The notes under the pieces were generated by a model. That model did not search any database, had not been told where the DNA came from, and saw only the letters and a program-made list of their open reading frames with translations. This document shows, in pieces, positions 1 through 17,425 of a stretch of 64,000 nucleotides of DNA (positions are counted from its first letter, which is position 1; the number at the start of each line of letters is the position of its first letter). The DNA is taken from the sequence record MT446416.1; one strand, written 5' to 3'. Origin of the DNA: Escherichia virus TH47. The position numbers and the translations under genes are program-made.

Positions 1-123
1 ACTGAACTCGTCATATTGGAACATTCCACCAAAAGGTTTAGGACTTCTAAACTCCTTTGCAATGCGATGAATGTTAGATGCAAATTCTAAAACACCATCG
101 TAATCATATTCTGTTGTAATCAT
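1..123 (-). CDS. hypothetical protein, 3' end truncated by window edge
   Basis: ATG at 121-123 (minus) overlapping stop of upstream gene (ATGA); reading frame MITTEYDYDGVLEF... runs off window start. Confidence 0.3.
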   Translation of the reverse strand, partial: MITTEYDYDGVLEFASNIHRIAKEFRSPKPFGGMFQYDEFS

Positions 124-602
124 AGACCATTTTTCTCCATGTACTCAATGATTTCATCTACGAAGTTTAAATCCATATAGAATCTATCATCTGCGTTATT
201 GAGTTCATCTTTAAGTACTGTAAAAATTGTAGAACTAAACACGATTCTCTCATTGTACAAAGTACTGTACTGGAAGAATTCTTCTTCTGATCTAACATTA
301 AATGTGTCATATTCATATTCATCATCATTAAATCTAGGATGATAGTACTTAAAACTATCAGATGTATGGAAACAATATGAGATAAAATCCCCTGATGGTG
401 CATCGTCAAGTACACGAATACCACAGAAATTCTCATCTGTAGTATGCAACAAATTGCTATTCATTGACAAATAATTTTTGTACGCATAAAGTGTGCATCG
501 TGGGAGAATTATATTCTCTTTAACTGTTACAAAGAACTTATGAAGTTTAATGATATTTTGTGCGATTTTTTGTGCATTGCTAAATGATAGGTCTTTGGAC
601 AT
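120..602 (-). CDS. FamA paralog (C-terminal E-E-x-F-F-Q-x-S module), function unknown
   Basis: 160-aa ORF; motif SEEEFFQYSTLYNE near C-terminus. Confidence 0.6.
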   Translation of the reverse strand: MSKDLSFSNAQKIAQNIIKLHKFFVTVKENIILPRCTLYAYKNYLSMNSNLLHTTDENFCGIRVLDDAPSGDFISYCFHTSDSFKYYHPRFNDDEYEYDTFNVRSEEEFFQYSTLYNERIVFSSTIFTVLKDELNNADDRFYMDLNFVDEIIEYMEKNGL

Positions 603-661
603 AGTGATATAACCCTTTACAATTAATATAAAGAGATTATATCACAAAGATTTGGAGGGTG

Positions 662-1213
662 TCAAGAGTTCTCACGAAGTTCTACCATTTCTTTCCATAC
701 TAAATGGTAATCTTCTAAGTCCAGATAGAAGTCTTCATTTAAGTGCTCATATAAGTACTTGTACATGAATAGTACACCTAAATTGTATTCAGTAGTAAGC
801 AATGATTGTTGGAAGTAGTTTTCTGCATTTAGTTCTATATCCATGAACTCGAATCTACCTAGACCTTTTAATGTACGTATCTCAACATGTGAAGTATCTG
901 TTTTACTGAAGCACATAAATCCACCTCTAAATTCGGGATCATATTCACATTCATACTGTGCACTGTTATTATAGAAATCTCTATTACCATCCTTATCTTT
1001 TGGATTAACAACAGATACGTGAAGGTAGTCATCTTTGTACATTGTACGTTCGGGCGTTTTCACGCATTTTAACTTATTTTCTTTAATGTACTTGATAATA
1101 TCAATTATATCTTGTGCAGTACTGATTGCTGCCTCAAATGTATCCAACTTAAGATGATTGTATAGAGTTCCCTCGTTCTTTATTTTATCTAACATAAAAA
1201 CCTCATAGTTCAT
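662..1213 (-). CDS. FamA paralog, function unknown
   Basis: ORF 662-1252; motif AENYFQQSLL; start moved to internal ATG 1213 to avoid 50-nt overlap (alternative start 1252). Confidence 0.5.
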   Translation of the reverse strand: MNYEVFMLDKIKNEGTLYNHLKLDTFEAAISTAQDIIDIIKYIKENKLKCVKTPERTMYKDDYLHVSVVNPKDKDGNRDFYNNSAQYECEYDPEFRGGFMCFSKTDTSHVEIRTLKGLGRFEFMDIELNAENYFQQSLLTTEYNLGVLFMYKYLYEHLNEDFYLDLEDYHLVWKEMVELRENS

Positions 1214-1541
1214 ACATCTTTGATTTGAATTGCATTGTTCCACCAACTTCACATGGATAATTTTCCATAATACGATTCAAAAGTATCTGGTACTGTTGTA
1301 GTACTTCAATTTCCAAATGTATACTACTATCCAGTACTAATGACTCCTGGAACAATTCACCTGTATCTAAACATGAAAAATCATTTATAGTTAGCATTGG
1401 CTTATCATTGGTACGCAATGTAAATGATTCCTCATTTCGGATTAATGTACAGAATTCATTATGTTTTCTGTTATAATCCATTTTAACCAATAATAACTTG
1501 GTGTGAGTTGCGTACATTATTTTTACTAATTCAGTCTTCAT
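1203..1541 (-). CDS. FamA paralog, function unknown
   Basis: 112 aa; motif TGELFQESLVLD. Confidence 0.6.
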   Translation of the reverse strand: MKTELVKIMYATHTKLLLVKMDYNRKHNEFCTLIRNEESFTLRTNDKPMLTINDFSCLDTGELFQESLVLDSSIHLEIEVLQQYQILLNRIMENYPCEVGGTMQFKSKMYEL

Positions 1542-1890
1542 AACGGAATAAAATTCTCCTGTACTGCTCCGGCTTAGTACTCAATCTCTTCACCGGATAA
1601 TTGTCGAAGATCCTTTTCATTTCTTTCTGGATTAAACAAAGAAAATCAAAATTGCAATAGTATTTTTTATCCCATACTAAACTTTCTTGAAATAACTCAT
1701 CTTCTTGCATTAGCGTAGTATCAATTGTATCTTCACGTGTATTTGAGTACGCTTCATGACATTGAAAACCATCTTCTGATAATTCTAATGTATATGCCGC
1801 CATTTCAAACATATCATCATTTGTCTTTAACGAAAGTAAACAACAAACGTATTTTTTCGTTGTGTAGTACGTAATACTAATGGTATTCAT
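1531..1890 (-). CDS. FamA paralog, function unknown
   Basis: 119 aa; motif EDELFQESLVWD. Confidence 0.6.
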   Translation of the reverse strand: MNTISITYYTTKKYVCCLLSLKTNDDMFEMAAYTLELSEDGFQCHEAYSNTREDTIDTTLMQEDELFQESLVWDKKYYCNFDFLCLIQKEMKRIFDNYPVKRLSTKPEQYRRILFRYED

Positions 1891-1895
1891 GGCAT

Positions 1896-2498
1896 TTAAA
1901 CCTCAGTATAAAGCTTACAATAGCTTTCATCGAAATCAAAAATACTTCTCAAGAACTGACAAAGGTCAGTAAAAATATTTACATTTGCTATATACACATT
2001 ATCAAATTCTGTTCTTTCGAAGAATGTATGCATAGAATTTGTAATATATCTCATTGCAGATTCACGCTGCATTGTTATATCATTTGTGAACATTGCATCT
2101 TCATCAGTACTGACCAATTCAATATCAAATGATTTCATATATGGGATGGACCTCCCTAGTGCAAAACTATCACCATATGATGCTTCTACTGCACCTTTAG
2201 AATACACCAATTGATATAAGTCCGAAATAGGGTTATAAAAAGTACGACATATTGATGAACATAATTTATTATCTATCCAAAAGAAAACCCTATTTGAGTT
2301 TCTGTCAAATGCTATACGCAATCCATCACCATCTAACGATATATCACCATCGAGATAAAAAGAGAACTGAACTAATGCTTTTTCTAAGTCCATTCTTTTG
2401 TGATAAATGATTTCTTGCATATAGATAATATCATTTACTAATTTCTTAAAATACAAATGAACCTCAGTACTACAACATTTATTTGCATTTAATAACAT
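1896..2498 (-). CDS. hypothetical protein
   Basis: 200-aa ORF in same operon-like packing; no family motif recognised. Confidence 0.5.
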   Translation of the reverse strand: MLLNANKCCSTEVHLYFKKLVNDIIYMQEIIYHKRMDLEKALVQFSFYLDGDISLDGDGLRIAFDRNSNRVFFWIDNKLCSSICRTFYNPISDLYQLVYSKGAVEASYGDSFALGRSIPYMKSFDIELVSTDEDAMFTNDITMQRESAMRYITNSMHTFFERTEFDNVYIANVNIFTDLCQFLRSIFDFDESYCKLYTEV

Positions 2499-3043
2499 AG
2501 TAGATCCTTATACATTGCATGTATTCTTACAATGTCTCTGTAATAACTCATATCTTCACGATTATCATTAAAAACAGTAACACTGAATACAGCAGTACTA
2601 ATTGAACTATCAACAATGTACTCTTTTAATTTATTATAAAGATATATGCACTTGGCAGATGTATCATCCCACATAAGACTATTTTGAAAGATGTTTTCTT
2701 CTGTGTTAGGATATAAGTACTGCTCAATCTTGTACCCCAATGAACTATCACAGTTTTTATATACAGAAATAGATGGGACATTCATATTGCACATAATACT
2801 AATAACATTATCATTGTATGTAGAAATTAAACTGGTACTGGATGCTACACTTTCATCATAATTCAGTACTGAAATTCTTGCATTATCTGTGCAGTACAGA
2901 TGTTTCATTCCACCTCTCATAGCCATAGTAAGAAATTTATCAGTGAACCATATTCCTTTTGTTTTCAGTATAGTTTCATGCATAAGATAAGTTTCAATGA
3001 AGATTTTTACACGCTCAAATGCCAAGTCAAGTTCATTGTACAT
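2489..3043 (-). CDS. FamA paralog, function unknown
   Basis: motif EENIFQNSLMWDD; internal ATG 3041-3043 preceded by AAGGA chosen as start. Confidence 0.55.
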   Translation of the reverse strand: MYNELDLAFERVKIFIETYLMHETILKTKGIWFTDKFLTMAMRGGMKHLYCTDNARISVLNYDESVASSTSLISTYNDNVISIMCNMNVPSISVYKNCDSSLGYKIEQYLYPNTEENIFQNSLMWDDTSAKCIYLYNKLKEYIVDSSISTAVFSVTVFNDNREDMSYYRDIVRIHAMYKDLLCY

Positions 3044-3224
3044 AACGGATATCCTTCTGTAAAGAATCAATATATTCTTTAACAACTTGTTCCTGATACT
3101 GTGTGCCCAAATACATCAGTACTTTTAATTCTTTGAACTCAGTACTATATGAGTCGGTTTGCATCATTTTAGAAGAATATATATTGAATAGTTTAGCAAT
3201 ATCATCTTGGTCTATTATTTTCAT
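3033..3224 (-). CDS. FamB small protein (LGTxYQE family)
   Basis: 63 aa; motif MYLGTQYQEQ. Confidence 0.55.
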   Translation of the reverse strand: MKIIDQDDIAKLFNIYSSKMMQTDSYSTEFKELKVLMYLGTQYQEQVVKEYIDSLQKDIRYVQ

Positions 3225-3420
3225 ATATTCTCTTCTGGATTAGTTCCTGTAAGTGCTGAATATAACCCTTCATTGCAACATCCTGTTTGTTAGAGCCAAC
3301 GAAGAACAATAGCTTAAAGTCATGGTAATCCATTTTTGGTTTAGTAGTGAACCATATGTCCCACACTGCACTCACAGTTCTCATGTATTCAATTCGATTA
3401 AATGTTTTTGAATACTTCAT
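3202..3420 (-). CDS. FamB-like small protein
   Basis: 72 aa; degenerate motif FFVGSNKQDV, C-terminal YIQHLQELIQ. Confidence 0.45.
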   Translation of the reverse strand: MKYSKTFNRIEYMRTVSAVWDIWFTTKPKMDYHDFKLLFFVGSNKQDVAMKGYIQHLQELIQKRIYENNRPR

Positions 3421-3934
3421 CGATGTTCATCGCCAATAAGTTAATATACAAATTACTGTTAAATGCAATCTGCAATTCCATATAGAACTGAATGATAGCA
3501 TAGTCAGGGTCAGTACACGATAGTTGAAAACACTGTTCGTCAAATGCATTGTAATTGTACTTAGGGATGTGAATTTCACGCTTCAAATCAGGTTGACCCC
3601 ACTTCATCGCATACACACCAATGTTATTGTTCTTTTTCCTTTTCTTAAATGTTAATTGTTGAATATTTCCAGCGTTGTCTAGGAAAATAGTATTATTCGA
3701 CACAGGTGCACCAATAGAAAACAATGATGTATCAATGACGTGTTTCTCACGTATCTCACACTTCTGGAATGCACCATTCCCTTGTAACAGTTTATGGAAA
3801 TCGTACTTCTCACTAATAACTGTACTAGGAACAATTAATCCAGTACTGCATTTTTTCAGTACTGGTACGATAGTGCGAATCTTTTTTGATAAATCTTGTA
3901 ATGCATCATAATCATTAATGTTAATTTTTCTCAA
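3398..3934 (-). CDS. hypothetical protein
   Basis: 178-aa ORF, tight packing with neighbours. Confidence 0.5.
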   Translation of the reverse strand: MRKININDYDALQDLSKKIRTIVPVLKKCSTGLIVPSTVISEKYDFHKLLQGNGAFQKCEIREKHVIDTSLFSIGAPVSNNTIFLDNAGNIQQLTFKKRKKNNNIGVYAMKWGQPDLKREIHIPKYNYNAFDEQCFQLSCTDPDYAIIQFYMELQIAFNSNLYINLLAMNIDEVFKNI

Positions 3935-4377
3935 AAGGATGCCTCTTCTATAGTAACGAAATCAACTAACCTATCAAGTTTTTCAGTGTCTAGATAAAAT
4001 ATATCCAGTACTGACTTCTGATATAGTACACTAAATGTACATAGATTGTCAAGTGTTCCTTCATTATAAACAGTACTTCCCTGGAAGTACCCTTCTTCTG
4101 TACTCAGAGATAAAATATCAGAAATTTTAAAAGATTCTTCATACTCATGACGCTCTATCGTAACTTCATCATATTTTCTGTTCAATGAAATATAATCATA
4201 TGCTATCTCAATAGTACTACAATTATTGCCATCCGTATCAAATAAAGAATCAATTGTAATCTTCGTGCCATTAGAAACTTCTCTTAGTTCATCATCTACA
4301 TAATCAGGATAGTCCTTTAAGAACTGAACAACGCGTAGAATATCATTTGCTTTCTTGATTGCACTTTCGTAACTCAT
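3931..4377 (-). CDS. FamA paralog, function unknown
   Basis: motif EEGYFQGSTVYNE; ATGA overlap with neighbour. Confidence 0.6.
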   Translation of the reverse strand: MSYESAIKKANDILRVVQFLKDYPDYVDDELREVSNGTKITIDSLFDTDGNNCSTIEIAYDYISLNRKYDEVTIERHEYEESFKISDILSLSTEEGYFQGSTVYNEGTLDNLCTFSVLYQKSVLDIFYLDTEKLDRLVDFVTIEEASF

Positions 4378-4817
4378 TTTTTTCTGGACTCCATATATAT
4401 CACCTGATTTAGTTCATATACATAATTTAAATCAATGAATATAGAATTATTAAAGTTCTCTTTCAGAAATGCATTAAAAACTACTAAAGCTCTTAATGCA
4501 CTATTTGGGTATATAGTACTGTACTGGAAGTAAGCATCTTCTGAATTTAAGAATAGTACGTCTTCTTCGGTGAATTCAAAATATTTACCACTTTCATCGA
4601 TTGAATAGAAAGTTCCAGGATTCCATTCGAAGTACTTGAATTCCAAATCATAATCATGGGACTCGTACTTATATTCATTACCTAATCCTAGAATATCTGT
4701 ACCAACACTTATAGTACTAATATATGCCCCTTTGTCGTCTAAGTACTTTACATTATTTTGAAAGAACTTTACTATATTAACTAATTCCTCAGCGTGCTTA
4801 AGATCACTTTCGTACAT
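4374..4817 (-). CDS. FamA paralog, function unknown
   Basis: motif EDAYFQYSTIYP. Confidence 0.6.
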   Translation of the reverse strand: MYESDLKHAEELVNIVKFFQNNVKYLDDKGAYISTISVGTDILGLGNEYKYESHDYDLEFKYFEWNPGTFYSIDESGKYFEFTEEDVLFLNSEDAYFQYSTIYPNSALRALVVFNAFLKENFNNSIFIDLNYVYELNQVIYMESRKK

Positions 4818-5131
4818 TATATTTCAATCTCTATATATTCTTGGGTAATTAAGTAATCCCAGTAGTACTTCACTTGTTTTTGTATCTCAATTAAGGCATG
4901 AAAATTAATTCTCTTATCCCATATAAGTGATTCCTGAAAAAGAAATGTTTCATGATCATCTCTGTAATCACATTCAAGGAAGTCAGGAATATAATCACAA
5001 TCGTGAAGATATTCAATCATTAAAGATTCATTACATCTTCTAACGGCAAGGTGCTGGAAATTATCATGATCGAAGAAATACATTAAACTAATTATACCTG
5101 GAATGTACTGAATACTGTATAAGAATTTCAT
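4817..5131 (-). CDS. FamA paralog, function unknown
   Basis: motif ETFLFQESLIWD. Confidence 0.6.
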   Translation of the reverse strand: MKFLYSIQYIPGIISLMYFFDHDNFQHLAVRRCNESLMIEYLHDCDYIPDFLECDYRDDHETFLFQESLIWDKRINFHALIEIQKQVKYYWDYLITQEYIEIEI

Positions 5132-5571
5132 CGTTTACCCTTATATACTTCACATACATATTCATAATCCAAATAAAATCTTGTACTATCAATACTTTTA
5201 AAGTACCACATTATAACTAAAGTATCTAGTACTTCATCATCATACAAAGTACTATTCTGAAAGTAATACTCTTCACTATCCCACGGACCTTTCAGCACTT
5301 CAAAGTTCAATTTTAAAGGTCTGCTGCGATTATAAAAACGGATTTCACCACCATAAGCATAACTGATAAATTCTGCATCTGGATTGTATTGTGAAAAATC
5401 TGCGGGACTTTTGGAATTCAACCCAAGAATAACTGTAGTTGTAGCAAAATCACTATCCTTGTAGTAGTTACCATTCTCGGCTTTGTATACTTCTTCGAAC
5501 TTCCCAGCCTTGATATCTTCAATATATACCTGTAGTTCTTTTGCTTTATCCAGAGCACTTTGTAATGACAT
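5128..5571 (-). CDS. FamA paralog, function unknown
   Basis: N-term MSLQSALDKAKE shared with next two genes; motif EEYYFQNSTLYDD. Confidence 0.6.
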   Translation of the reverse strand: MSLQSALDKAKELQVYIEDIKAGKFEEVYKAENGNYYKDSDFATTTVILGLNSKSPADFSQYNPDAEFISYAYGGEIRFYNRSRPLKLNFEVLKGPWDSEEYYFQNSTLYDDEVLDTLVIMWYFKSIDSTRFYLDYEYVCEVYKGKR

Positions 5572-6037
5572 TATCTTCCCCTACAGTATTCTCTACGTAT
5601 TCATAATCGAAATAGAAACTACCAGAGCCAATACTTTTAAAGTACCACATAATTACAATAACATCTAATGCTTCTTCATTGTACACAGTACTTTGCTGGA
5701 AGTAATATTCTTCACTATCCCACGGGCCTTCCAGTACTGAATACGGAATGATTGTGTCATCATCATCGTAATCATGGCTGTAAATTATAATATCTTCATC
5801 GCTACAATAACTAATGTACTGATTGTACATATGATATTCACAGTCATCTGTATCACCCGTATCAGTGTGCAGTACTAACGTTTCTGCACATATCTCTGAC
5901 TCATCATAATCGTCACGATCTTTTACAAAAAATTCAGTATCAGATGTTTTATACACACCTGGAACTGAACCTTCTTGTACCATAATCATGTACTCATGAA
6001 TCTTCTTTGCTTCTTTCAATGCACTTTGTAACGACAT
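5546..6037 (-). CDS. FamA paralog, function unknown
   Basis: N-term MSLQSALKEAKK; motif EEYYFQQSTVYNEE; acidic insert. Confidence 0.6.
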   Translation of the reverse strand: MSLQSALKEAKKIHEYMIMVQEGSVPGVYKTSDTEFFVKDRDDYDESEICAETLVLHTDTGDTDDCEYHMYNQYISYCSDEDIIIYSHDYDDDDTIIPYSVLEGPWDSEEYYFQQSTVYNEEALDVIVIMWYFKSIGSGSFYFDYEYVENTVGEDNVITKCSG

Positions 6038-6480
6038 TACAAATCCCCTGTACTTAAATATTCACATGCTCCCCAGTCAAGAAAGAATGGATCGAAATTC
6101 AATTCCTTAAAGTACCACAACACAACCAAGGAATCAAGCATTTCTTGGTTAAAAATAAGACTCTGTTGGAAGTAATACTCTTCAGTACCCCACGGGCCGT
6201 CAAGTACCCCGAAGTCAATAGGTGTATTTGATGTGTCGAAAGTAATCTTAGTACCTGGAATATATACAAAAAAACTAGTATATTGACTACATGAAGAGTA
6301 CTGTATAGTATTGTCTTTATCATGGCCCATAAGTAAAATATCATCAGAGTATGTCTTTATACCTGATAGATAATACTCATTACCAAATGCACTTACTTTA
6401 TCACCATAGAAACCACTTTTTATGTTATCGTGGAAGTGATGTATTTTGTGGGCCAGTTTAAGTGCACTTGCTAAACTCAT
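6037..6480 (-). CDS. FamA paralog, function unknown
   Basis: N-term MSLASALKLAHK; motif EEYYFQQSLIFNQE. Confidence 0.6.
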   Translation of the reverse strand: MSLASALKLAHKIHHFHDNIKSGFYGDKVSAFGNEYYLSGIKTYSDDILLMGHDKDNTIQYSSCSQYTSFFVYIPGTKITFDTSNTPIDFGVLDGPWGTEEYYFQQSLIFNQEMLDSLVVLWYFKELNFDPFFLDWGACEYLSTGDL

Positions 6481-10397: not shown

Positions 10398-10413
10398 ATG
10401 TGCCTCATCTACC

Positions 10414-10608: not shown

Positions 10609-10609
10609 A

Positions 10610-11218
10610 TTATATATTCAACCCTTGAATGCAGGAAATAAATTCTTTGTATACATTTTCAGGTAAAGCTCTACTACCATAAAGAACACTAAATTCAGGT
10701 AACATATTCGAAATCTCTTTCGCTAAATTTATTTCATCCCTGAACATTTGCACAGGCATGATATCCTGTACCAATGATAACTGAAAGAAAAATGATTCAA
10801 TATCTTCATGTATCTCTGAATTTAAATAAATCTCTTCTGGAAACTCTTCTGTACTGTAATAATAAAATACGTCAATTCTTTTATCATTATTATTCACAAG
10901 AGGTAAATTTCTTTCGTCTCTCTTATTAATATTTGTTTTCCATGACTCAATGTTATTCGGAACCCAAAACTCATAAGGTGTCTTCTCTCCTGAAATATTA
11001 TCCAGCTTCAATCCATAATATTCACCTTCTCCGTACTTTTGCTTCAAAACAATACCTGCACTACTAATGTTTACAATGTACGGATCAACAATCCCCTCTG
11101 CGGTAAAAGGAATATTTAACTCTGAACCTTCAGGGTACTTAGCATTGAATGCATCTAATGCTTTACTTAGCACTGGAATTGCACTTGTACTGTACTTCAT
11201 TAATTGGTCTATGTTCAT
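10610..11218 (-). CDS. FamA paralog, function unknown
   Basis: motif ESFFFQLSLVQDIM. Confidence 0.6.
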   Translation of the reverse strand: MNIDQLMKYSTSAIPVLSKALDAFNAKYPEGSELNIPFTAEGIVDPYIVNISSAGIVLKQKYGEGEYYGLKLDNISGEKTPYEFWVPNNIESWKTNINKRDERNLPLVNNNDKRIDVFYYYSTEEFPEEIYLNSEIHEDIESFFFQLSLVQDIMPVQMFRDEINLAKEISNMLPEFSVLYGSRALPENVYKEFISCIQGLNI

Positions 11219-11781
11219 TTTAATTCCCCTGTAATCATACTGATATTTGAACGATACATATCGTACACTGTACTTTCTTTCTTGTGCACAATGAAATCAT
11301 AAAGATCAACGAATGCAGAAATAATAATCTTGAATGATTTATTTGGGTACGTCCCAAAATCAACTGTACTCAATTTTGCAACGAGCATAACAACAAAGAT
11401 TTCTTCTGGACTATGCAATGTACTGTACTGAAAATATTCCTCAGCACTCATGGCACTTATTGCATTTATATCTTGTGTTTGTAATGTAATATTAAGATAT
11501 TCAAAAATAGAATAAAACTCTGATTTTGTTTGTATTTTGTATTTTGTTTGTATTTTGTATTTGTCAATTGGGGTATCTCTCATGAACCATAAACGATCTT
11601 GTTCATAAAAAGGAATGATTGAATTTGGGGAAGCCAGAAATACTTCTTCTCTATCAATATCTTTTAACTCAATTTGCATACCGGATGAATTGGCAATAAT
11701 TAATTCATGAAAAATATAATGAACCTTATGTACCATCTCTTGTACTGAATTGAAATCATCTGGTATTTTAAAATTTTCCAT
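11215..11781 (-). CDS. FamA paralog, function unknown
   Basis: motif AEEYFQYSTLHSPEE. Confidence 0.6.
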   Translation of the reverse strand: MENFKIPDDFNSVQEMVHKVHYIFHELIIANSSGMQIELKDIDREEVFLASPNSIIPFYEQDRLWFMRDTPIDKYKIQTKYKIQTKSEFYSIFEYLNITLQTQDINAISAMSAEEYFQYSTLHSPEEIFVVMLVAKLSTVDFGTYPNKSFKIIISAFVDLYDFIVHKKESTVYDMYRSNISMITGELK

Positions 11782-11856
11782 AGGTATCTCCTTAAAAAAT
11801 GATTACATATTGTACCATGCATTTGTACTCGTGTCAAACGAAAAAAAGCCCATATC

Positions 11857-12354
11857 TTACGATACAGGCATGTTTATTTGAATTTCATTGTACAAATCAT
11901 CAATATATAGACATGAAAAAGATACACTATCTTTAACTATATTGTTGTGATAAAGCATTTTAAACACAATATAGAAAAATAAATCAATATCATCATGTAC
12001 TAAATTCTGCTGGAACCACCACTCTTCTGTTAAATCTTGTGCATTAAAATCATCAGGAACTTCAATGAACGACATATCACCATCTTCTTTGTACTCAAAC
12101 CACATGTCGTCATTCGGATAACGTTCATGCTTCTCTGGGTAACAATTGGTGGGATTAAATGCTAAAATATAAAACGCCGTCGAAGAATATTCTTTATTTA
12201 GAAATGAATTATTCCACACCTGATACCTTTCACCAACATCAAACTCTGGTGCTACTGATTTTATTGCACATAATGTACTGTATATTGTTTCTATCTTGTG
12301 AACAAATTTAAAGGCAGCATCTAAACTAAACTCTAAATCATACATGTACTGCAT
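11857..12354 (-). CDS. FamA paralog, function unknown
   Basis: motif EEWWFQQNLVHDDID. Confidence 0.55.
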   Translation of the reverse strand: MQYMYDLEFSLDAAFKFVHKIETIYSTLCAIKSVAPEFDVGERYQVWNNSFLNKEYSSTAFYILAFNPTNCYPEKHERYPNDDMWFEYKEDGDMSFIEVPDDFNAQDLTEEWWFQQNLVHDDIDLFFYIVFKMLYHNNIVKDSVSFSCLYIDDLYNEIQINMPVS

Positions 12355-12674
12355 AAAATTACCTCAACTAAAGCAAGGACTGTATTGAATTCCAAATTAC
12401 TTGTAATTCCTTGAAGGTACATGTACTTTGCTACTACATATTTCTGTACTAAATTATAATTTTTAAATTTCTCAAAATTGTAATTTAGAACAAAATCTGT
12501 ACTCAAAAATAACTTATGCATCTCTAATGCACTTTGATAATATTGGTACAACTCACTGATATCAATACTGGTTAAATTATATTGTTCATATCTATGATAC
12601 GGGATGGCTTCAATTTCAATACTATAAAACCATTCTCTTAACTTATTAATATCAAATGTATTATTCAGCTTCAT
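12333..12674 (-). CDS. hypothetical protein
   Basis: 113-aa ORF, no family motif seen. Confidence 0.45.
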   Translation of the reverse strand: MKLNNTFDINKLREWFYSIEIEAIPYHRYEQYNLTSIDISELYQYYQSALEMHKLFLSTDFVLNYNFEKFKNYNLVQKYVVAKYMYLQGITSNLEFNTVLALVEVILCSTCMI

Positions 12675-13245
12675 AACTCAATACCTCCATTAAGCACTCA
12701 TAAACACCATCAATCGCATAAGCACAAAAATTGAAATTAATTTTGTGATTCTTGTGTAATGGACTATTGTGTACTGTACTAATAAGGACATTATAAAACA
12801 ACAAACGCACTGGTACAAGCATTGAACCTTGGAAAAATTCTTCCTCTGATTTATATGTATTGTACTCTATTGCTTTGTTCGTTTCTTTATCATATTTTAC
12901 CATTACTAACGGGGTATTTTTATTATACCATGCGTACTCTAAATCATTATTTCCAATAACAGCACCAGGGGAGAAATCCAAAAGACCAATAACACTACTT
13001 GCATTTGGTGTATATGGTGTATTGAATCGTTTATCAAAATGACTCGTGCACGCAATATGTGAATTAAAATCAGATGGTTTAAACCCTATGCACGCGTTAA
13101 TTATTCTTGTATATGGTTTTTTATTATGTGCTGCTTTCTGGGCATTATATAAGGCTGCAACAATACAAGCTAACTTTTGCCCCATAAGGATTGCATTAGC
13201 GTAGGTGTACTGAATATCATTGCTGGTACGGTACTTCGAGGTCAT
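12661..13245 (-). CDS. FamA paralog, function unknown
   Basis: motif EEEFFQGSMLVP. Confidence 0.55.
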   Translation of the reverse strand: MTSKYRTSNDIQYTYANAILMGQKLACIVAALYNAQKAAHNKKPYTRIINACIGFKPSDFNSHIACTSHFDKRFNTPYTPNASSVIGLLDFSPGAVIGNNDLEYAWYNKNTPLVMVKYDKETNKAIEYNTYKSEEEFFQGSMLVPVRLLFYNVLISTVHNSPLHKNHKINFNFCAYAIDGVYECLMEVLSYEAE

Positions 13246-13528
13246 AATATTTCCTTTGCCATATCATGGGCTTAAAATCAATAACAGCTTTCTGTATCTT
13301 TTTTAATAATAAGACATCATAACCACCCGTGTCAATCACTAATTGCTGTTGGAACAATTCTTCATCGGATAATGTATTGAAATCTACAAAATAATCTGTA
13401 ACTATCGAATCATTTAAATGTGCCATGTACCAACCTGAACTTCTTGAATAAATCAAATTCCACCCATCGTCATCATCTTCTAATTCAACATAAATCATAT
13501 CTGGGGTATACATCATTTTATACTTCAT
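13217..13528 (-). CDS. FamA paralog, function unknown
   Basis: motif DEELFQQQLVIDTGG. Confidence 0.6.
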   Translation of the reverse strand: MKYKMMYTPDMIYVELEDDDDGWNLIYSRSSGWYMAHLNDSIVTDYFVDFNTLSDEELFQQQLVIDTGGYDVLLLKKIQKAVIDFKPMIWQRKYYDLEVPYQQ

Positions 13529-14024
13529 AACTATATCCTTGCATCAAAATATCATAAACGTTTGAAAGGTACGGAATTTTGATATAAAATTTAAAACCCT
13601 TAATTAAAGGATTCGCGTACAATGAACTGAATAACTTTAGATAATGTATTTGACGAGGACTGTATAATAACGATTTCTGAAATAATTCAGAACTACAATC
13701 TGAACTAATATCAATTAAATCAATTCGTGCTTCTACTTCATCATTTTGTTTCAAATCATAAAAGAAATAATCGTTTGTGTTGACCCACAAATACCCTTCA
13801 CTATTTTCGTATATAACAGGAGATGCTTGTTCTGGATTGCCTTGGGCAAATGCTGCAAAACAAACTTTTGCATTACTTTCATCTTTAAACAAAAACGATA
13901 ATTTATCATATCTATCTTCTATGCGTAAATCACCTATATAAATGTACTTATACATAGAATGATTATTCTTGAGCATAAGCATTACTGTACTAATCTTGTG
14001 TGCTAATAATTCTATCTCATTCAT
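13518..14024 (-). CDS. FamA paralog, function unknown
   Basis: motif SSELFQKSLLYSP; N-term MNEIELLAHKIST and C-term LMQGYSYEV identical to 14096-14650. Confidence 0.6.
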   Translation of the reverse strand: MNEIELLAHKISTVMLMLKNNHSMYKYIYIGDLRIEDRYDKLSFLFKDESNAKVCFAAFAQGNPEQASPVIYENSEGYLWVNTNDYFFYDLKQNDEVEARIDLIDISSDCSSELFQKSLLYSPRQIHYLKLFSSLYANPLIKGFKFYIKIPYLSNVYDILMQGYSYEV

Positions 14025-14039: not shown

Positions 14040-14105
14040 GATGGATGCATCATCTTCTAATTCAACATAAATCATATCTTGGGGTATACATCATTTTATA
14101 CTTCA
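14040..14105 (-). pseudogene. duplicated fragment of the 5' end of gene 13217-13528
   Basis: ~65 nt near-identical to 13480-13545 with a 1-nt indel; part of a tandem duplication. Confidence 0.35.
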
Positions 14106-14650
14106 TAACTGTATCCTTGCATTAAAAGATCATAAACTACATGGACTAAATTTAATTGAATATAAAATTTTAAACCTTTAATTAATGGATTCAAATGCAT
14201 TGTACTGAATAACATTAGATACATCATCTCATGCGGTTTTGTGATTAATGATTTTTGAAATACTTCAGCTTCATCATAAGGGTCTATGAACTGAAATTTG
14301 TCTTCATCATAATTTGTATTGGAATGCTGATATATAAAATAATCATCATTGGTATTGTACCACAAATACCCTTCGAATCCTGTACTAACATCTTTGGTCA
14401 ATGGGGATGCTGATACTGGATTTGAACTGATTAATGCACCTACATCAACAATCCCCGTTGTATCATATTCGATTTCATCATCAATGTCAATATCAATGTA
14501 TTTCCTTGCGATATCTGCGTTTATGGACAAATATAAACTACCACCTGTCCTCTGACTCAGGATTCCATCTATCTGCGATATAGGATGGTTGTTATTGAGG
14601 ATAAGCATTATTGTACTAATCTTGTGTGCTAATAATTCTATCTCATTCAT
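14096..14650 (-). CDS. FamA paralog, function unknown (recent duplicate of 13518-14024)
   Basis: motif AEVFQKSLITKP; shared N- and C-termini with 13518-14024. Confidence 0.6.
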   Translation of the reverse strand: MNEIELLAHKISTIMLILNNNHPISQIDGILSQRTGGSLYLSINADIARKYIDIDIDDEIEYDTTGIVDVGALISSNPVSASPLTKDVSTGFEGYLWYNTNDDYFIYQHSNTNYDEDKFQFIDPYDEAEVFQKSLITKPHEMMYLMLFSTMHLNPLIKGLKFYIQLNLVHVVYDLLMQGYSYEV

Positions 14651-15623: not shown

Positions 15624-15787
15624 CTTATTAGATTATCAACGTATTGGTCCTGTACTATTGTCCCTAGATAAAATGATACTTCGAACTCTGCAAATTTGAT
15701 ATTAAAAGGATCTACATATACATCTTTAATAAACTCTTTGTACTTCAACAAATATTCATTAGGTAAATTCTTATATATCGATTTCAA
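15575..15787 (-). CDS. FamB-like small protein
   Basis: motif FYLGTIVQDQ. Confidence 0.5.
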   Translation of the reverse strand: MKSIYKNLPNEYLLKYKEFIKDVYVDPFNIKFAEFEVSFYLGTIVQDQYVDNLIRCLKKEIQCRPKCTKK

Positions 15788-16082
15788 TGATCCTCCCTGA
15801 CATACCTTGTATTAGCTTATCATACATATCGAGCATAACTTTTTGTATATTAATTAATACTGGCATCGTGCAAATATCAATGTCGTATATTAAGCTGTAC
15901 TGGAATAATTCCTCTTCCTGCATTTGTACTAAATTAGGTAAAAGATAATTGTCTGCCTCTTCATCCTGGTACTTGAAATGCATAACACCATTCGTTTTGT
16001 ACAATAGAATGTCAATATCACCCAATTCATAGGAATAACCAAAAATACATATACTCGATGTTTTTGCTATATTAAATTTCAT
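15771..16082 (-). CDS. FamA paralog, function unknown
   Basis: motif EEELFQYSLIYDID. Confidence 0.6.
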   Translation of the reverse strand: MKFNIAKTSSICIFGYSYELGDIDILLYKTNGVMHFKYQDEEADNYLLPNLVQMQEEELFQYSLIYDIDICTMPVLINIQKVMLDMYDKLIQGMSGRIIEIDI

Positions 16083-16091
16083 ATTATTCTC

Positions 16092-16415
16092 TTATATGTG
16101 GAATTCACATACGTGTTGAACAAAATTCTTTGGAAGATGACAATGTGATATCATCTGCTTTTGTACTTCCTTCATATCTTCGAATGTAAATCCTAAAGAA
16201 TCATCATGTACTAACAAGTACTGAAACTCTTCTTCTTCAGAGATAGAACATAAATTCGGTACTGAAATTGTTTTTGTTTTTCTTGCACCCAATTTCCAAT
16301 GAAAAGAATTATCACATTTTCTGTACTCAAATATCTTCAACCCAGAACCCGTATTAAAATCAGCTACTACAATGTAACAAGAATTCTTACGTACAATACA
16401 ATTGAACTTACGCAT
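16092..16415 (-). CDS. FamA paralog, function unknown
   Basis: motif EEEEFQYLLVHDD; start at ATG 16413-16415 preceded by GGAGA. Confidence 0.55.
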   Translation of the reverse strand: MRKFNCIVRKNSCYIVVADFNTGSGLKIFEYRKCDNSFHWKLGARKTKTISVPNLCSISEEEEFQYLLVHDDSLGFTFEDMKEVQKQMISHCHLPKNFVQHVCEFHI

Positions 16416-16719
16416 TATCTCCACCTCTCCCCGTCTGTACAAGAGTACTGGTACGTTGTCGTTATGGTAGGGACCATGTTTGTAATGGGCATATTATTAA
16501 CAATAACGGTAACAGGCATAAGAATCGTCTCTACTCTACTCTGTCCTGTCTTTGTGCAATTCATCTTCTGCATTTCATCTGAATCCATGAAATACAATAC
16601 AAATGGTGCAATCCCAAGAACAATACACAAGACGATAAGGAAATTTAAAAAATTTAACATAATTTTTACCCTATGATTAACGTTAGTGTACTATATCAGT
16701 AATGAAAAGTACTGTCAAG

Positions 16720-17115
16720 CTAGTATTGCACTGTTCTAATGAAAGTACCTTTACTCATGGATTTAAGCTTATGAACCTCTTCCTGTATACCCTTGAGCAA
16801 CCCTAAAGGTATAGGTACATCATGTACTAAGCTGTACTGAAAGTATTCTTCTTCAGATAAAGTACTAACATCTGGAACGCCAATTTTAGTTATATAATCT
16901 TGATGTGTTGACCAATAAATTATATCTTCAGTAGAATTGTACTCCCCATATACTGAACAATATTGATGAATATCTTTCCTGTACCCTTGAGCAATAAAGA
17001 ACTTATCTACTGCATTACCAGCATTAATAGAATTCACTTCGATTGTCACAGTACTTGAGCTTGTATAACTCTTAATATTATCAGTACTCAACTGTGTGTT
17101 CTTCATAATCACCAT
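16720..17115 (-). CDS. FamA paralog, function unknown
   Basis: motif EEEYFQYSLVHDV. Confidence 0.6.
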   Translation of the reverse strand: MVIMKNTQLSTDNIKSYTSSSTVTIEVNSINAGNAVDKFFIAQGYRKDIHQYCSVYGEYNSTEDIIYWSTHQDYITKIGVPDVSTLSEEEYFQYSLVHDVPIPLGLLKGIQEEVHKLKSMSKGTFIRTVQY

Positions 17116-17425
17116 TAGGCTCCTGTTTAGATTCTTTCATTAGTACTATCATCTTATGTACTAATGGCATAGGAAACTCTAAATCCCATACTAATGATTC
17201 CTGGAAGTATTCCTCTGGTGATAAAGTACTTAAATCTTTAATATCAACGTGCTTGTATATTTTATTTTCGTAATTAACAAATGATATATATAAATCACTA
17301 ACATAAGAATCATAGGTAATTGTGAATGGCTTACCCTTGTAATCCATTACATCTCTACATAGACTACTTTTGATATATGTATGTTCAAATGATTTATATA
17401 CCTTGAGTTTTATATTAGTTTTCAT
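17081..17425 (-). CDS. FamA paralog, function unknown
   Basis: motif PEEYFQESLVWDLE. Confidence 0.6.
   Translation of the reverse strand: MKTNIKLKVYKSFEHTYIKSSLCRDVMDYKGKPFTITYDSYVSDLYISFVNYENKIYKHVDIKDLSTLSPEEYFQESLVWDLEFPMPLVHKMIVLMKESKQEPNGDYEEHTVEY

What the first reader, a model, noticed from the sequence alone, without database searches (positions are those of the whole stretch)
120..17425. FamA: ~35 proteins sharing a C-terminal module whose core (E-E-x-[YF]-F-Q-x-S) resembles a 3C/TEV-type protease site
Most genes in the first 17 kb, plus 44068-44739 and 53657-54307, end with a ~45-aa module containing acidic-acidic-x-aromatic-F-Q-x-S-[LT]-[VI]-[YW]-D and a hydrophobic helix, with variable N-terminal domains. 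Conserved C-terminal module plus variable N-terminus is the architecture of polymorphic effector or targeting families. The core also matches the TEV-type cleavage consensus E-x-x-Y-x-Q-[SG]; most likely it is just a structural core, but a processing site is a testable alternative.
Basis: partly seen in the sequence, partly recalled or inferred. Interest (0 to 1): 0.75.

Follow-up and report, generated by a model that had tools for sequence, protein, structure and literature searches.

The report
Early multigene family of jumbo phages
The first 17 kb of this giant E. coli phage genome holds about thirty copies of one small, uncharacterised protein family whose shared "E-E-x-Y-F-Q-x-S" signature is predicted to be a core helix, not a protease cutting site; the proteins are probably made early in infection to act on host proteins.

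Summary
An HMM of the C-terminal module finds 31 complete members in the window, all on the minus strand: 29 in 120-17425, plus 44068-44739 and 53657-54370. There is also one member cut by the left edge and one probable degenerate copy.

The window is an Asteriusvirus jumbo coliphage of the PBECO4/121Q group. The array runs past the window: 41 members in fEgEco12, 38 in 121Q, 24-26 in Klebsiella phage RaK2.

The TEV/3C reading is not supported.
- Only 1 of 31 members fits E-x-x-Y-x-Q-[GS].
- The residue after Q is mostly Y, Q or E; the conserved Ser sits one position further on.
- In two AlphaFold models the motif is an N-capped helix in the most confident part of a compact single domain.
- No 3C-like protease was found or is annotated.

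The "variable N-terminal domain" is predicted to be the beta-sheet of that same domain.

No match was found in Pfam, NCBIfam or PDB. PHROGs splits the family into at least 9 "unknown function" groups.

The genes lie just inside the ~21-kb terminal repeat, behind near-consensus sigma-70 promoters. They overlap by 1-4 nt, evolve under purifying selection (dN/dS about 0.3), and are absent from two virion proteomes.

Best reading: an early, non-structural family of diversified binders for host takeover or anti-defence. That function is inferred, not shown.

The parts
1..123 (-). N-terminal 41 codons of a further FamA member that runs off the left edge of the window
   Evidence: The translation aligns with the N-terminus of fEgEco12 g132, which is an HMM hit carrying MTEEMYFQGSCIHD.
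120..602 (-). FamA long-class member, 160 aa (SEEEFFQYSTLYN)
   Evidence: HMM E = 1.2e-16; motif.
636..665 (-). Perfect sigma-70-type promoter (TTGACA-18-TATAAT, with TG extension), 34 nt upstream of the 602 start
662..1252 (-). FamA long-class member (NAENYFQQSLL); the true start is probably internal
   Evidence: HMM E = 1.2e-15.
1203..1541 (-). FamA short-class member, 112 aa (TGELFQESLVLD)
   Evidence: HMM E = 1.7e-12; alignment A3.
1531..1890 (-). FamA short-class member, 119 aa (EDELFQESLVWD); this is the protein modelled for the short class
   Evidence: HMM E = 1.5e-15. AF2 pLDDT 84, pTM 0.79, motif within helix 63-72.
2489..3085 (-). FamA divergent long-class member (TEENIFQNSLMWD); start probably at 3043
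   Evidence: Seed HMM E = 1.5e-4; iterated HMM E = 6e-11.
3398..3934 (-). Probable degenerate FamA member, 178 aa (FDEQCFQLSCTD ... LYINL)
   Evidence: Motif visible. Only the N-terminal helix aligns weakly to A2 (E = 0.015). Below the HMM threshold.
3931..4377 (-). FamA long-class member, 148 aa (TEEGYFQGSTVYN). It is the only window member that fits the strict TEV consensus, and it is the protein modelled for the long class
   Evidence: HMM E = 5.2e-18. AF2 pLDDT 75.8, pTM 0.74, motif within helix 94-100. TEV count.
4374..4817 (-). FamA long-class member, 147 aa (SEDAYFQYSTIY)
   Evidence: HMM E = 2.9e-17.
4817..5131 (-). FamA short-class member, 104 aa (HETFLFQESLIWD)
   Evidence: HMM E = 5e-13.
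5128..5571 (-). FamA long-class member, 147 aa (SEEYYFQNSTLYD)
   Evidence: HMM E = 1.1e-21.
5546..6037 (-). FamA long-class member, 163 aa (SEEYYFQQSTVYN), net charge -29
   Evidence: HMM E = 8e-23; charge.
6037..6480 (-). FamA long-class member, 147 aa (TEEYYFQQSLIFN)
   Evidence: HMM E = 1.7e-19.
6477..6947 (-). FamA long-class member, 156 aa (SEEFYFQQNTIYE)
   Evidence: HMM E = 2.4e-18.
7131..7475 (-). FamA short-class member, 114 aa (GEAEIFQESLIFD)
   Evidence: HMM E = 9e-9.
7472..7831 (-). FamA short-class member, 119 aa (DAAELFQESLVFD)
   Evidence: HMM E = 3.6e-14.
7818..8312 (-). FamA short-class member (DDAALFQESLVFD); start probably at 8204
   Evidence: HMM E = 2.3e-15; alignment A3.
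8976..9602 (-). FamA long-class member (SEEMLFQYKMVYT)
   Evidence: HMM E = 1.1e-15.
9541..9885 (-). FamA divergent member, 114 aa (EDEAARFQYETAFD)
   Evidence: HMM E = 1.4e-9.
9882..10520 (-). FamA long-class member (EDEAAYFQQSLID); true start probably at 10397
   Evidence: HMM E = 5.5e-14. The PHROG match begins at residue 42.
10444..10472 (-). Sigma-70-type promoter (11/12 match), 47 nt upstream of the probable 10397 start
10610..11218 (-). FamA long-class member, 202 aa (IESFFFQLSLVQD)
   Evidence: HMM E = 2.5e-14.
11215..11781 (-). FamA long-class member, 188 aa (SAEEYFQYSTLHS)
   Evidence: HMM E = 9.7e-18.
11809..11869 (-). Terminator-like hairpin (11869-11848) followed by a sigma-70-type promoter (11837-11809, 11/12 match, with TG extension) in the gap before the 11781 start
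11857..12354 (-). FamA long-class member, 165 aa (TEEWWFQQNLVHD)
   Evidence: HMM E = 1e-17.
12661..13245 (-). FamA long-class member, 194 aa (SEEEFFQGSMLV)
   Evidence: HMM E = 6.1e-17.
13217..13528 (-). FamA short-class member, 103 aa (SDEELFQQQLVID)
   Evidence: HMM E = 1.1e-12.
13518..14024 (-). FamA long-class member, 168 aa (CSSELFQKSLLYS)
   Evidence: HMM E = 1.4e-17.
14096..14650 (-). FamA long-class member, 184 aa (DEAEVFQKSLIT)
   Evidence: HMM E = 2.8e-11.
15771..16082 (-). FamA short-class member, 103 aa (QEEELFQYSLIYD)
   Evidence: HMM E = 2e-15.
16092..16442 (-). FamA short-class member (SEEEEFQYLLVHD); start probably at 16415
   Evidence: HMM E = 1.6e-7.
16690..16718 (-). Sigma-70-type promoter (11/12 match, with TG extension) in an intergenic gap, 30 nt before the small hydrophobic ORF 16415-16660
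16720..17115 (-). FamA short-class member, 131 aa (SEEEYFQYSLVHD)
   Evidence: HMM E = 2.1e-12.
17081..17425 (-). FamA short-class member, 114 aa (SPEEYFQESLVWD)
   Evidence: HMM E = 3e-11.
44068..44739 (-). Outlying FamA member, 223 aa (TPEEEFMYSTVID). It is the only member with M in place of Q
   Evidence: HMM E = 1.7e-9; motif.
53657..54370 (-). Outlying FamA member among the RCC1-like genes (SEEQLFQYSLIHD); likely ATG start at 54307
   Evidence: HMM E = 1.6e-9. P0068 (216 aa) matches 54307-53660.

Best explanation
FamA is a lineage-specific multigene family of Rak2-like jumbo phages. The window holds 31 complete genes, and a whole genome holds more than 40.

**The protein (predicted).** Each product is a small (about 100-210 aa), mostly acidic protein with no Pfam or NCBIfam domain match. 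It is predicted to fold as one compact alpha+beta domain:
- a sequence-variable four-stranded beta-meander;
- then the conserved helix [ST]-E-E-x-[YL]-F-Q-x-S-[LT]-[VI]-[YFHW]-D;
- then a second helix and a beta-strand that probably returns to the sheet.

The long class adds one N-terminal and one C-terminal helix. In the motif, Ser/Thr-Glu-Glu looks like a helix N-cap. By helical periodicity, Phe and the Leu/Val residues that follow it would form the hydrophobic face packing on the sheet. The motif is therefore read as the structural core of the fold, not a 3C/TEV cleavage site.

**The genes.** They sit in one co-directional, tightly packed, translationally coupled array just inside the ~21-kb direct terminal repeat. 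Near-consensus host sigma-70 promoters lie upstream, and the products are absent from virions.

**Most likely function (inferred, not shown).** The proteins are made early in infection. They would use a conserved scaffold with diversified beta-sheet and loop surfaces to bind, and probably inhibit, different host proteins, serving host takeover or anti-defence. The expansion and strain-to-strain turnover of the array would reflect that conflict.
For: **Family and its size**
- 31 members in the window, 41 in fEgEco12, 38 in 121Q and 24-26 in RaK2.

**Single-domain fold with a helical motif**
- The long-class AF2 model has pLDDT 75.8 and pTM 0.74. The motif lies in helix 94-100, within the 10-residue blocks of highest pLDDT (96 and 91).
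- The short-class model has pLDDT 84 and pTM 0.79. The motif lies in helix 63-72, in the block of highest pLDDT (96).
- The two classes align by hhalign at 88% probability and E = 2.9e-6, extending into the beta region.
- A TPR-like protein containing AEGYFQQSLVI was the only unrelated hit in 1.84 billion representatives, which suits a helical motif.

**Early, host-RNAP transcription**
- The minus strand carries 30 sites matching at least 11/12 of the sigma-70 consensus, against 2.8 expected (maximum 8 in 60 simulations).
- Seven of these lie in 1-17 kb, where about 0.8 would be expected, and none lies on the plus strand there. At least four sit in intergenic gaps 28-47 nt before a start codon.
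- The array begins about 6-10 kb beyond the 20,993-bp terminal repeat of fEgEco12 (PMC13070987).
- The equivalent region of phage CBB is proposed to be early/host-takeover on promoter grounds (PMC5259590).
- Terminal-repeat genes of the related phage PA5oct are early by RNA-seq (PMC7318152).

**Operon-like packing**
- 17 of 30 junctions between neighbouring members overlap, mostly by 1-4 nt.

**Non-structural**
- None of the RaK2 ORFs in the array region is among its 54 virion proteins (PMC3622015 Table S3).
- No gene in the gp348-548 range of phAPEC6, which contains the array, is among its 62 virion proteins (PMC7247149 Table 1).

**Functional genes with individual identities**
- Gene order is colinear with 121Q.
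- dN/dS is 0.33 for the N-terminal part and 0.26 for the module, at dS 0.66.

**Other properties**
- The proteins are acidic, with a median pI of 4.8.
- Array content varies between strains: relatives cover 46-80% of the region.
Against: - No experiment and no homologue of known function bears on the proposed role, so the binder/inhibitor function is inference from position, architecture and analogy.
- Promoter evidence is consensus matching only. Three of the seven strong sites in the array lie inside ORFs, and the total count of weaker promoter-like sites is not above chance (102 against 116.5).
- The fold rests on AlphaFold models built from shallow alignments of 17 and 33 sequences. One region of the long-class model is below pLDDT 50.
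- An invariant Gln is unusual for a purely structural role.
- dN/dS of about 0.3 shows constraint, not the positive selection that an arms race might predict.
Confidence: 0.55

Rival explanations
1. Common-partner docking module. The conserved helix, with its invariant Phe-Gln, binds one shared partner. Candidates include the phage's own ClpA-like/ClpP protease, host RNA polymerase or another hub. The variable sheet binds different clients, so the family would act as adaptors, comparable to poxvirus ankyrin-PRANC/F-box proteins.
For: - F is invariant and Q nearly so across three phage lineages, while nearly everything else varies.
- An invariant polar Gln suggests more than packing.
- RaK2 encodes a ClpA-like protein (ORF069) and ClpP (ORF489) (PMC3622015 Table S2).
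- The conserved-module-plus-variable-part logic holds at the sequence level.
Against: - The motif lies in the most confidently predicted, apparently core, helix of a single domain.
- S/T-E-E fits a helix N-cap, and the hydrophobic periodicity fits a buried face.
- No partner has been identified, and no interaction was tested.
Confidence: 0.12
2. Processing site. A 3C/TEV-like or other Gln-specific protease cleaves after F-Q and releases the N-terminal part from the C-terminal module.
For: - The sequence resembles E-N-L-Y-F-Q-[GS] and L-E-V-L-F-Q-G-P.
- A few members fit the strict TEV consensus: 3931-4377 (EEGYFQG) in the window, 2 of 41 in fEgEco12 (including g132, EEMYFQG) and 2 of 26 in RaK2.
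Against: - The strict consensus is met in only 1/31, 2/41 and 2/26 members.
- P1' is mostly Y, Q or E, not G/S/A, and the conserved Ser is at P2'.
- P3 is not conserved in RaK2, where it is Y, L, A, E, R, K, W, M or I.
- The motif is helical, at the highest pLDDT, inside a single domain.
- RaK2's annotated proteases are only a T4 gp21-like prohead protease, ClpP and one putative peptidase.
- From general knowledge, no Gln-specific processing protease is known in tailed phages.
Confidence: 0.03
3. Neutral or selfish gene amplification. The array would be duplicated filler with no individual functions, kept only by the duplication dynamics of a large genome.
For: - Tandem organisation, with recent duplicates such as 5128-6947, 7131-8312 and 13518-14650.
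- Array content varies between strains.
- At least one degenerate copy, 3398-3934.
Against: - Orthologues are retained in colinear order between species at dS 0.66, with dN/dS of 0.26-0.33 in both halves.
- Reading frames are intact in all the genomes examined.
- The family is conserved in a second genus, RaK2, with a weaker tblastn match (E = 6e-3) in the Munch-like Salmonella phages.
Confidence: 0.1
4. Virion-internal or ejected proteins. The shared module would target them to the capsid, and the prohead protease would trim them at the S-E-E site, as with T4 internal proteins or phiKZ inner-body proteins.
For: - S/T-E-E resembles the S/A/G-x-E and L/I-x-E cleavage motifs of the phiKZ gp175 and T4 gp21 proteases (from general knowledge).
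- These phages encode a gp21-like prohead protease.
- phAPEC6 has a capsid inner body (PMC7247149 abstract).
Against: - No member from the array region appears in the RaK2 virion proteome of 54 proteins or the phAPEC6 proteome of 62 proteins.
- The genes lie in a sigma-70-promoter early region, and no T4-type late promoter TATAAATA occurs in the window.
Confidence: 0.03

Closest known systems
Terminal multigene families and early host-takeover modules of large DNA viruses: the Bacillus phage SPO1 terminal-redundancy host-takeover genes, T5 pre-early genes, poxvirus and ASFV multigene families, and the ~35-copy zinc-ribbon expansion of phage G (PMC7824862)
   Same: - Dozens of small paralogous genes in co-directional tandem arrays next to a genome end or terminal repeat.
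- Host-type promoters upstream.
- Non-structural products.
- Array content that varies between strains.
   Different: - There is no sequence or confident fold relationship to any of these families.
- Early timing and a role in host interaction are inferred here, not measured.
TEV NIa and picornavirus 3C protease recognition sites (E-N-L-Y-F-Q-[G/S]; L-E-V-L-F-Q-G-P)
   Same: The string [E]-[E]-x-[Y/L]-F-Q, with an acidic residue five positions before the Gln.
   Different: - The residue after Gln is Y, Q or E rather than G or S, and the Ser is one position later.
- P3 is not conserved in RaK2.
- The motif is a buried-looking helix inside a domain, not an exposed linker.
- No cognate protease was found.
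PHROG families phrog_9317, 12674, 13866, 15629, 30978, 19795, 28680, 34359 and 29152 (all 'unknown function')
   Same: These are the same proteins. Individual FamA members hit them at E from 1e-31 to 1e-119, with weak cross-hits between the groups.
   Different: PHROGs treats them as separate, unannotated families. The shared module and fold that unite them, and the RaK2 copies, are not recorded there.
TPR-type helical repeats
   Same: The only non-family hit of the module profile among 1.84 billion proteins is a TPR-like repeat protein carrying KLDEAEGYFQQSLVI. It shows the same helix-forming string.
   Different: FamA has one copy of the motif, embedded in an alpha+beta domain, and no repeat architecture. 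No TPR Pfam hit was obtained.
Tandem arrays of polymorphic-toxin immunity proteins (for example the SUKH and Imm families) and phage anti-defence proteins such as Ocr-like acidic inhibitors
   Same: Small, acidic, cytoplasmic alpha+beta proteins found in tandem paralogous arrays. They have a conserved scaffold with divergent surfaces, and a plausible role in neutralising host proteins.
   Different: - No sequence match in Pfam or NCBIfam.
- The resemblance is by analogy only.

Membership tests
3C/TEV-type protease cleavage site | Sequence consensus E-x-x-Y-x-Q-[G/S] (TEV), or a small P1' residue (G/S/A) after Gln (3C/3CL) | tested here: not met
   The strict TEV consensus is met in 1/31 window members, 2/41 in fEgEco12 and 2/26 in RaK2. 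P1' in the window is Y (9), Q (7), E (5), N (2), G (2), K (2). The conserved Ser is at P2'. P3 varies in RaK2.
3C/TEV-type protease cleavage site | The site lies in an exposed, extended or flexible segment between folded units | tested here: not met
   In both AF2 models the motif is helical (residues 94-100 and 63-72). It falls in the highest-pLDDT block (96) of each single-domain model, which have pTM 0.74 and 0.79. This is a prediction, not an experiment.
3C/TEV-type protease cleavage site | A cognate chymotrypsin-fold (PA clan) protease encoded by the virus | tested here: inconclusive
   RaK2 annotation lists only a gp21-like prohead protease, ClpP, a ClpA-like protein and one putative peptidase. 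tblastn with TEV protease found no jumbo-phage hit at E <= 10.
3C/TEV-type protease cleavage site | Cleavage products observed in infected cells | not testable with these tools
   This needs N-terminomics or intact-mass proteomics of infected cells.
Polymorphic toxin or effector family | A conserved trafficking or secretion domain joined to variable toxin domains, with recognisable toxin or secretion domains | tested here: not met
   No Pfam or NCBIfam domain of any kind was found. The conserved part is C-terminal. The variable part is predicted to be the beta-sheet of the same small domain.
Polymorphic toxin or effector family | Rapid swapping or diversification of the variable part between strains | tested here: not met
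   Orthologous N-terminal parts are conserved: 69% amino-acid identity and dN/dS 0.33 against 121Q, only slightly above the module's 0.26.
Already described protein domain (Pfam, NCBIfam, PDB) | A significant match to a curated model or a solved structure | tested here: not met
Early terminal multigene family of a large virus (SPO1/T5-type host-takeover region) | Tandem, co-directional paralogues adjacent to the genome end or terminal repeat | tested here: met
   In fEgEco12 the order is terminal repeat (1-20,993), then tiny genes, then the FamA array from about 27 to 55 kb, all on one strand.
Early terminal multigene family of a large virus (SPO1/T5-type host-takeover region) | Transcription by host RNA polymerase immediately after infection | tested here: inconclusive
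   Near-consensus sigma-70 sites are enriched on the coding strand: 7 against about 0.8 expected in the array, and 30 against 2.8 in the window. Supporting literature concerns CBB and PA5oct only. No transcript data exist for this phage.
Early terminal multigene family of a large virus (SPO1/T5-type host-takeover region) | Products act on host proteins or host defences | not testable with these tools
   This needs interaction, toxicity or deletion experiments.
Capsid-targeted internal proteins processed by the prohead protease (T4 IP / phiKZ inner-body type) | Presence in purified virions | tested here: not met
   The family is absent from the published virion proteomes of RaK2 (54 proteins) and phAPEC6 (62 proteins, with gene numbers mapped).

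The most novel reading that the evidence does not exclude
The invariant Phe-Gln helix may be a docking element for one shared partner, for example the phage-encoded ClpA-like/ClpP protease or a host hub such as RNA polymerase. The variable beta-sheets would then recruit different host proteins. On this reading the 40-plus paralogues form a phage-encoded adaptor library for targeted degradation or inhibition of host factors. That would be the bacterial-virus counterpart of the poxvirus ankyrin/F-box and BTB-Kelch families.
Probability: 0.1. Interest if true: 0.8.

Novelty: new member of a known kind. Interest (0 to 1): 0.4.

Why it matters
This is probably one of the largest paralogous families in these ~350-kb phages: more than 40 of the roughly 670 genes in fEgEco12, or about 6%. 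It is shared by at least two genera of Rak2-like jumbo phages (Escherichia/Salmonella Asteriusvirus and Klebsiella Alcyoneusvirus), with a weaker match in the Munch-like Salmonella phages.

The family is annotated only as "hypothetical protein" and is split across many PHROGs. It has no Pfam, NCBIfam or PDB counterpart.

Recognising it as one fold family, placed in the likely early region, gives a defined set of candidates for host-takeover or anti-defence factors. Several of these phages are being developed for therapy. It also removes an attractive but misleading "TEV-site" reading.

Tried and rejected
- **Pfam and NCBIfam scans** of ten members gave nothing usable.
- **Word-indexed homologue search** with the module profile returned only 34 hits, all hypothetical proteins, nearly all on phage-sized (~350-kb) or E. 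coli contigs.
- **Exhaustive profile search** of 1.84 billion representatives returned only 74 clusters, all family members except one TPR-like false positive.
- **Foldseek against afdb50** could not be run because the library was unavailable.
- **Foldseek against BFVD** returned only uncharacterised proteins of RaK2, SP27 and 121Q, with weaker matches in fHe-Yen9-04 and GAP32.
- **Context for a divergent metagenomic relative (P0086)** was sought and not found: no phage record and no IMG/VR locus.
This is a weak negative, because tblastn cannot see distant PA-clan proteases.
- **ORF 1896-2498** was tested as a hidden member and rejected (hhalign E = 0.27).
- **The prohead-protease/internal-protein idea** was considered and rejected on the published virion proteomes.
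- **The SUKH/immunity-protein idea** remains an analogy only, with no detectable similarity.
- **A T4-type late promoter (TATAAATA)** was searched for; none occurs in the window.

Full report
**What the window is.** Megablast of the first 18 kb matches 35 jumbo phage records, 31 from Escherichia and 4 from Salmonella. The best matches are WPEC3, CMSTMSU and fEgEco12 at 93-95% identity over 76-80% of the query. The PBECO4/121Q group covers only 46-58%. The window therefore comes from an Asteriusvirus, a Rak2-like jumbo myovirus of about 350-385 kb. All annotated features under the match are "hypothetical protein".

**Check of the observation.** The region 120-17425 is packed with minus-strand ORFs of 100-210 aa.
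- A relaxed motif scan of all six frames places the FQ core 44-76 residues before the stop codon in ORF after ORF on that strand.
- An HMM built from 27 seed modules finds 30 ORFs at E from 8e-23 to 1.6e-7, plus 2489-3085 at 1.5e-4. The next ORF scores E = 0.036. Twenty-nine of these lie in 120-17425; the other two are 44068-44739 and 53657-54370.
- Anchored on FQ, the consensus is [ST]-E-E-x-[YL]-F-Q-x-S-[LT]-[VIL]-[YFHW]-D, with F in 31/31, Q in 30/31 and S in 25/31.
- The first 123 bases encode the N-terminus of one more member that runs off the window. ORF 3398-3934 carries a decayed motif, DEQCFQLSCTD.
- BLAST of the parts upstream of the motif links only recent tandem duplicates, while the C-terminal parts link 28 of 31. 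The "variable N-terminus" description therefore holds at sequence level.

**The array is larger than the window and older than the genus.**
- In fEgEco12 the same HMM finds 41 members, and the array continues about 10 kb beyond the window's left edge. In 121Q there are 38 in colinear order.
- Foldseek of the long-class model against viral predicted structures returned uncharacterised proteins of Klebsiella phage RaK2 with consecutive accessions (four of them among the top 14 hits), alongside SP27 and 121Q proteins, with weaker hits in Yersinia fHe-Yen9-04 and Cronobacter GAP32.
- Fetching the RaK2 region and scanning it gives 24-26 members with the motif [ST]-E-E-x-x-F-Q-Y-S-T-[LIV]-Y.
- A RaK2 member also weakly matches the Munch/7t3/SE_PL Salmonella phages (E = 6e-3).
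- Outside this group the module is essentially absent. A profile search of 1.84 billion representative proteins found only 74 clusters, all 55-241 aa. Every one carries the module at its C-terminus except one TPR-like protein with repeats of KLDEAEGYFQQSLVI.

**Is it a known domain?** No.
- Pfam and NCBIfam give nothing.
- PDB sequence profiles give nothing.
- PHROGs holds the members in at least nine separate "unknown function" families with weak cross-hits. By full-length BLASTP the window's members split into clusters of 10, 4, 3 and 2 plus singletons, which may explain why the unity of the family has not been noted.
- The RaK2 paper says only that about 10% of its gene products are paralogues (PMC3622015).
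- A broad comparative review of jumbo phages, searched by keyword, shows no mention of this family (PMC7824862).

**Structure.** Two AlphaFold models were made from paralogue and orthologue alignments.
- *Long class* (3931-4377, 148 aa): pLDDT 75.8, pTM 0.74. It has an N-terminal helix (3-22), a poorly predicted stretch (32-55) and four strands (56-84). These are followed by helices 85-92 and 94-100, helix 106-121, strand 126-130 (the conserved F-Y-L-D) and helix 131-147. Helix 94-100 is E-E-G-Y-F-Q-G itself.
- *Short class* (1531-1890, 119 aa): pLDDT 84, pTM 0.79. It has four main strands (3-46) and a short fifth (52-54), helix 63-72 (E-D-E-L-F-Q-E-S-L-V), helix 81-96 and strand 110-116.
- In both models the motif sits in the most confident block (pLDDT 96).
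- The two classes align profile-to-profile at 88% probability over 51 columns that include the strands before the motif.
- The full-length alignment of 17 long members also shows a shared N-terminal helix and a conserved Tyr in the sheet.

My reading is one small alpha+beta domain. The "variable N-terminal domain" is the beta-sheet of that domain, and the conserved module is its helical core plus one returning strand. That the last strand pairs with the N-terminal sheet is inferred, because coordinates could not be inspected. S/T-E-E at the start of the helix fits a helix N-cap (general knowledge). The spacing of F, L and V fits a buried face.

**The protease-site idea.**
- The strict consensus occurs in 1/31 window members, 2/41 in fEgEco12 and 2/26 in RaK2. 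P1' is mostly Y, Q or E. P3 is not conserved in RaK2.
- A helical, high-confidence position inside a domain is not where 3C-type sites are found.
- RaK2's functional table lists only a T4 gp21-like prohead protease, ClpP, a ClpA-like protein and one putative peptidase. The Sharanji paper mentions only the prohead protease.
- A full profile scan of a complete genome could not be done, so the absence of a protease is not proven. Taken together, the reading is very unlikely (about 3%).

**Where and when the genes are expressed.**
- fEgEco12 has a 20,993-bp direct terminal repeat (PMC13070987). From that end, on one strand, the order is repeat genes, then about 40 tiny genes, then the FamA array from about 27 to 55 kb, then ribonucleotide reductase and other genes.
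- The minus strand of the window carries 30 sites matching at least 11 of 12 positions of TTGACA-N16-18-TATAAT. First-order Markov simulations give 2.8 on average and at most 8.
- Eighteen of these lie at 24-42 kb, which corresponds to the terminal repeat; eleven of the eighteen are perfect matches.
- Seven lie in the FamA array, where about 0.8 would be expected, and none lies on the opposite strand there. Those at 665, 10472, 11837 and 16718 sit in intergenic gaps 28-47 nt before a start codon. The one at 11837 directly follows a terminator-like hairpin.
- The overall count of weaker promoter-like sites is not above chance, so only the strong sites carry weight.
- Seventeen of 30 junctions between neighbouring members overlap, typically by 1 or 4 nt.
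- The CBB paper reached the same "early, host takeover" proposal for its equivalent region of short hypothetical ORFs, from RpoD-like promoters. RNA-seq of the related phage PA5oct shows its terminal-repeat genes are early.
- No T4-type late promoter is present in the window.

**Not virion proteins.** None of the RaK2 ORFs in the array region is among its 54 virion proteins identified by mass spectrometry. None of phAPEC6 gp348-548, which includes the array at about gp405c-466c, is among its 62. This also argues against a capsid-targeting role or prohead-protease trimming at S-E-E.

**Selection.** For 26 pairs of window members and their best matches in 121Q, aligned over at least 80% of their length:
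- dS is 0.66;
- dN/dS is 0.33 upstream of the motif and 0.26 in the module;
- amino-acid identity is 69% and 74% respectively.

Against fEgEco12 the ratios are 0.37 and 0.36. Each paralogue is therefore kept as an individual, constrained gene. The N-terminal parts are not swapped or free-running, which again differs from polymorphic effector systems. Array content still varies between strains, and tandem duplicates exist. The proteins are mostly acidic, with a median pI of 4.8 and net charge down to -29.

**Most likely mechanism.**
- *Shown or predicted here:* a real, large, constrained gene family. It has a predicted single-domain fold with the motif as a core helix. It sits beside the terminal repeat behind strong host-type promoters and is absent from virions.
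- *Inferred:* early expression, and a role as a diversified set of small binders or inhibitors of host proteins for host takeover or anti-defence. This rests on analogy with early terminal gene modules of SPO1 and T5 and with multigene families of large eukaryotic viruses.
- *Confidence:* about 0.55 overall, higher for the structural and family statements and lower for the function.
- *Main rival (about 0.12):* the invariant F-Q helix docks a shared partner, so the family works as adaptors. The phage's own ClpA-like/ClpP pair makes this worth testing.

**Novelty and interest.** Paralogue expansions of small early genes are a known feature of large phages, so this is a new member of a known kind rather than a new kind of system. 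The family itself appears undescribed and its fold has no confident match. The TEV-like appearance is coincidental. Interest is moderate (0.4): it is a good, well-delimited target set for functional work on therapeutic jumbo coliphages, but no surprising mechanism is in evidence.

Noticed in passing
window 17659-23364 (minus strand), plus 3033-3224, 15330-15623 and 15575-15787: A second, separate paralogous family: 27 tiny ORFs of about 50-100 aa linked by BLASTP. Many carry an L-G-T-[DN]-x-Q-E motif, and some also carry V-L-F-Q-x-L-P. They lie in a tight tandem array between the terminal-repeat region and FamA, with three copies interspersed inside the FamA array. They correspond to fEgEco12 g057-g095. 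The FamA HMM does not detect them.
   Followed up: partly
window about 24000-42000, minus strand: Eighteen sites match at least 11/12 of the sigma-70 consensus; eleven of them are perfect TTGACA-16/17-TATAAT. They are spread among the small genes of the region that corresponds to the ~21-kb direct terminal repeat of fEgEco12. This is a very dense set of strong host-type early promoters.
   Followed up: partly
window 46456-55510, plus strand: Seven paralogous proteins of 369-416 aa with RCC1-like repeats; the four scanned match Pfam RCC1, RCC1_2 and the RCC1-like domain. Similarly sized proteins annotated as 'DNA condensation protein' in phAPEC6 (gp003-010, gp549, gp551) are virion-associated by mass spectrometry; orthology to the window's genes was not checked. 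The two outlying FamA members (44068-44739 and 53657-54370) lie beside and among these genes on the opposite strand.
   Followed up: partly
window about 42000-46000: GC skew changes sign and the coding strand switches here. By colinearity with fEgEco12, its physical left genome end maps near window position 45800. The source record therefore appears to be opened elsewhere than at the physical end.
   Followed up: no
window 26074-26715, minus strand: A 213-aa protein inside the terminal-repeat region with a weak protein-kinase match (Pfam Pkinase, E = 0.0018, below the cut-off). A gene at the corresponding position of fEgEco12 (g044) is annotated as 'serine/threonine-protein kinase PRP4'. It may be an early phage kinase.
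   Followed up: no
window 58054-63252, minus strand: A run of genes, each preceded by the same TTGACT-18-TATAAT promoter (at 58882, 60329, 61717 and 63302). They include an AAA/STAND-like NTPase (58054-58824), two zinc-ribbon/treble-clef proteins (58896-60044 and 61729-63252) and a DenV-like pyrimidine-dimer glycosylase (61144-61659; Pfam PF03013, E = 9e-15).
   Followed up: no
window 55547-57986, minus strand: Seven consecutive ORFs of 104-123 aa, abutting or overlapping by a few bases. BLASTP at E < 1e-4 does not link them to each other or to FamA. One of them (56284-56655) was the best non-member hit of the FamA HMM, at E = 0.036. They may be another very divergent small-protein array.
   Followed up: no
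window 16415-16660, minus strand: An 81-aa ORF with a strongly hydrophobic N-terminal segment (MLNFLNFLIVLCIVLGIAPFVLYF), directly downstream of the 16718 promoter and inside the FamA array. It may be a small membrane protein.
   Followed up: no
P0057 (metagenomic protein, not in the window): The only unrelated hit of the module profile among 1.84 billion proteins. It is a TPR-like repeat protein with three copies of KLDEAEGYFQQSLVI, showing that this string is a common helix-forming pattern.
   Followed up: yes
P0069, P0071, P0076, P0082, P0086, P0089, P0090, P0092 (metagenomic proteins): Divergent FamA-like proteins with no tblastn match to the window or to fEgEco12. The one tested (P0086) also has no match in the phage record collection or in IMG/VR. 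They point to unsequenced relatives of the Rak2-like phages that carry the same family.
   Followed up: partly
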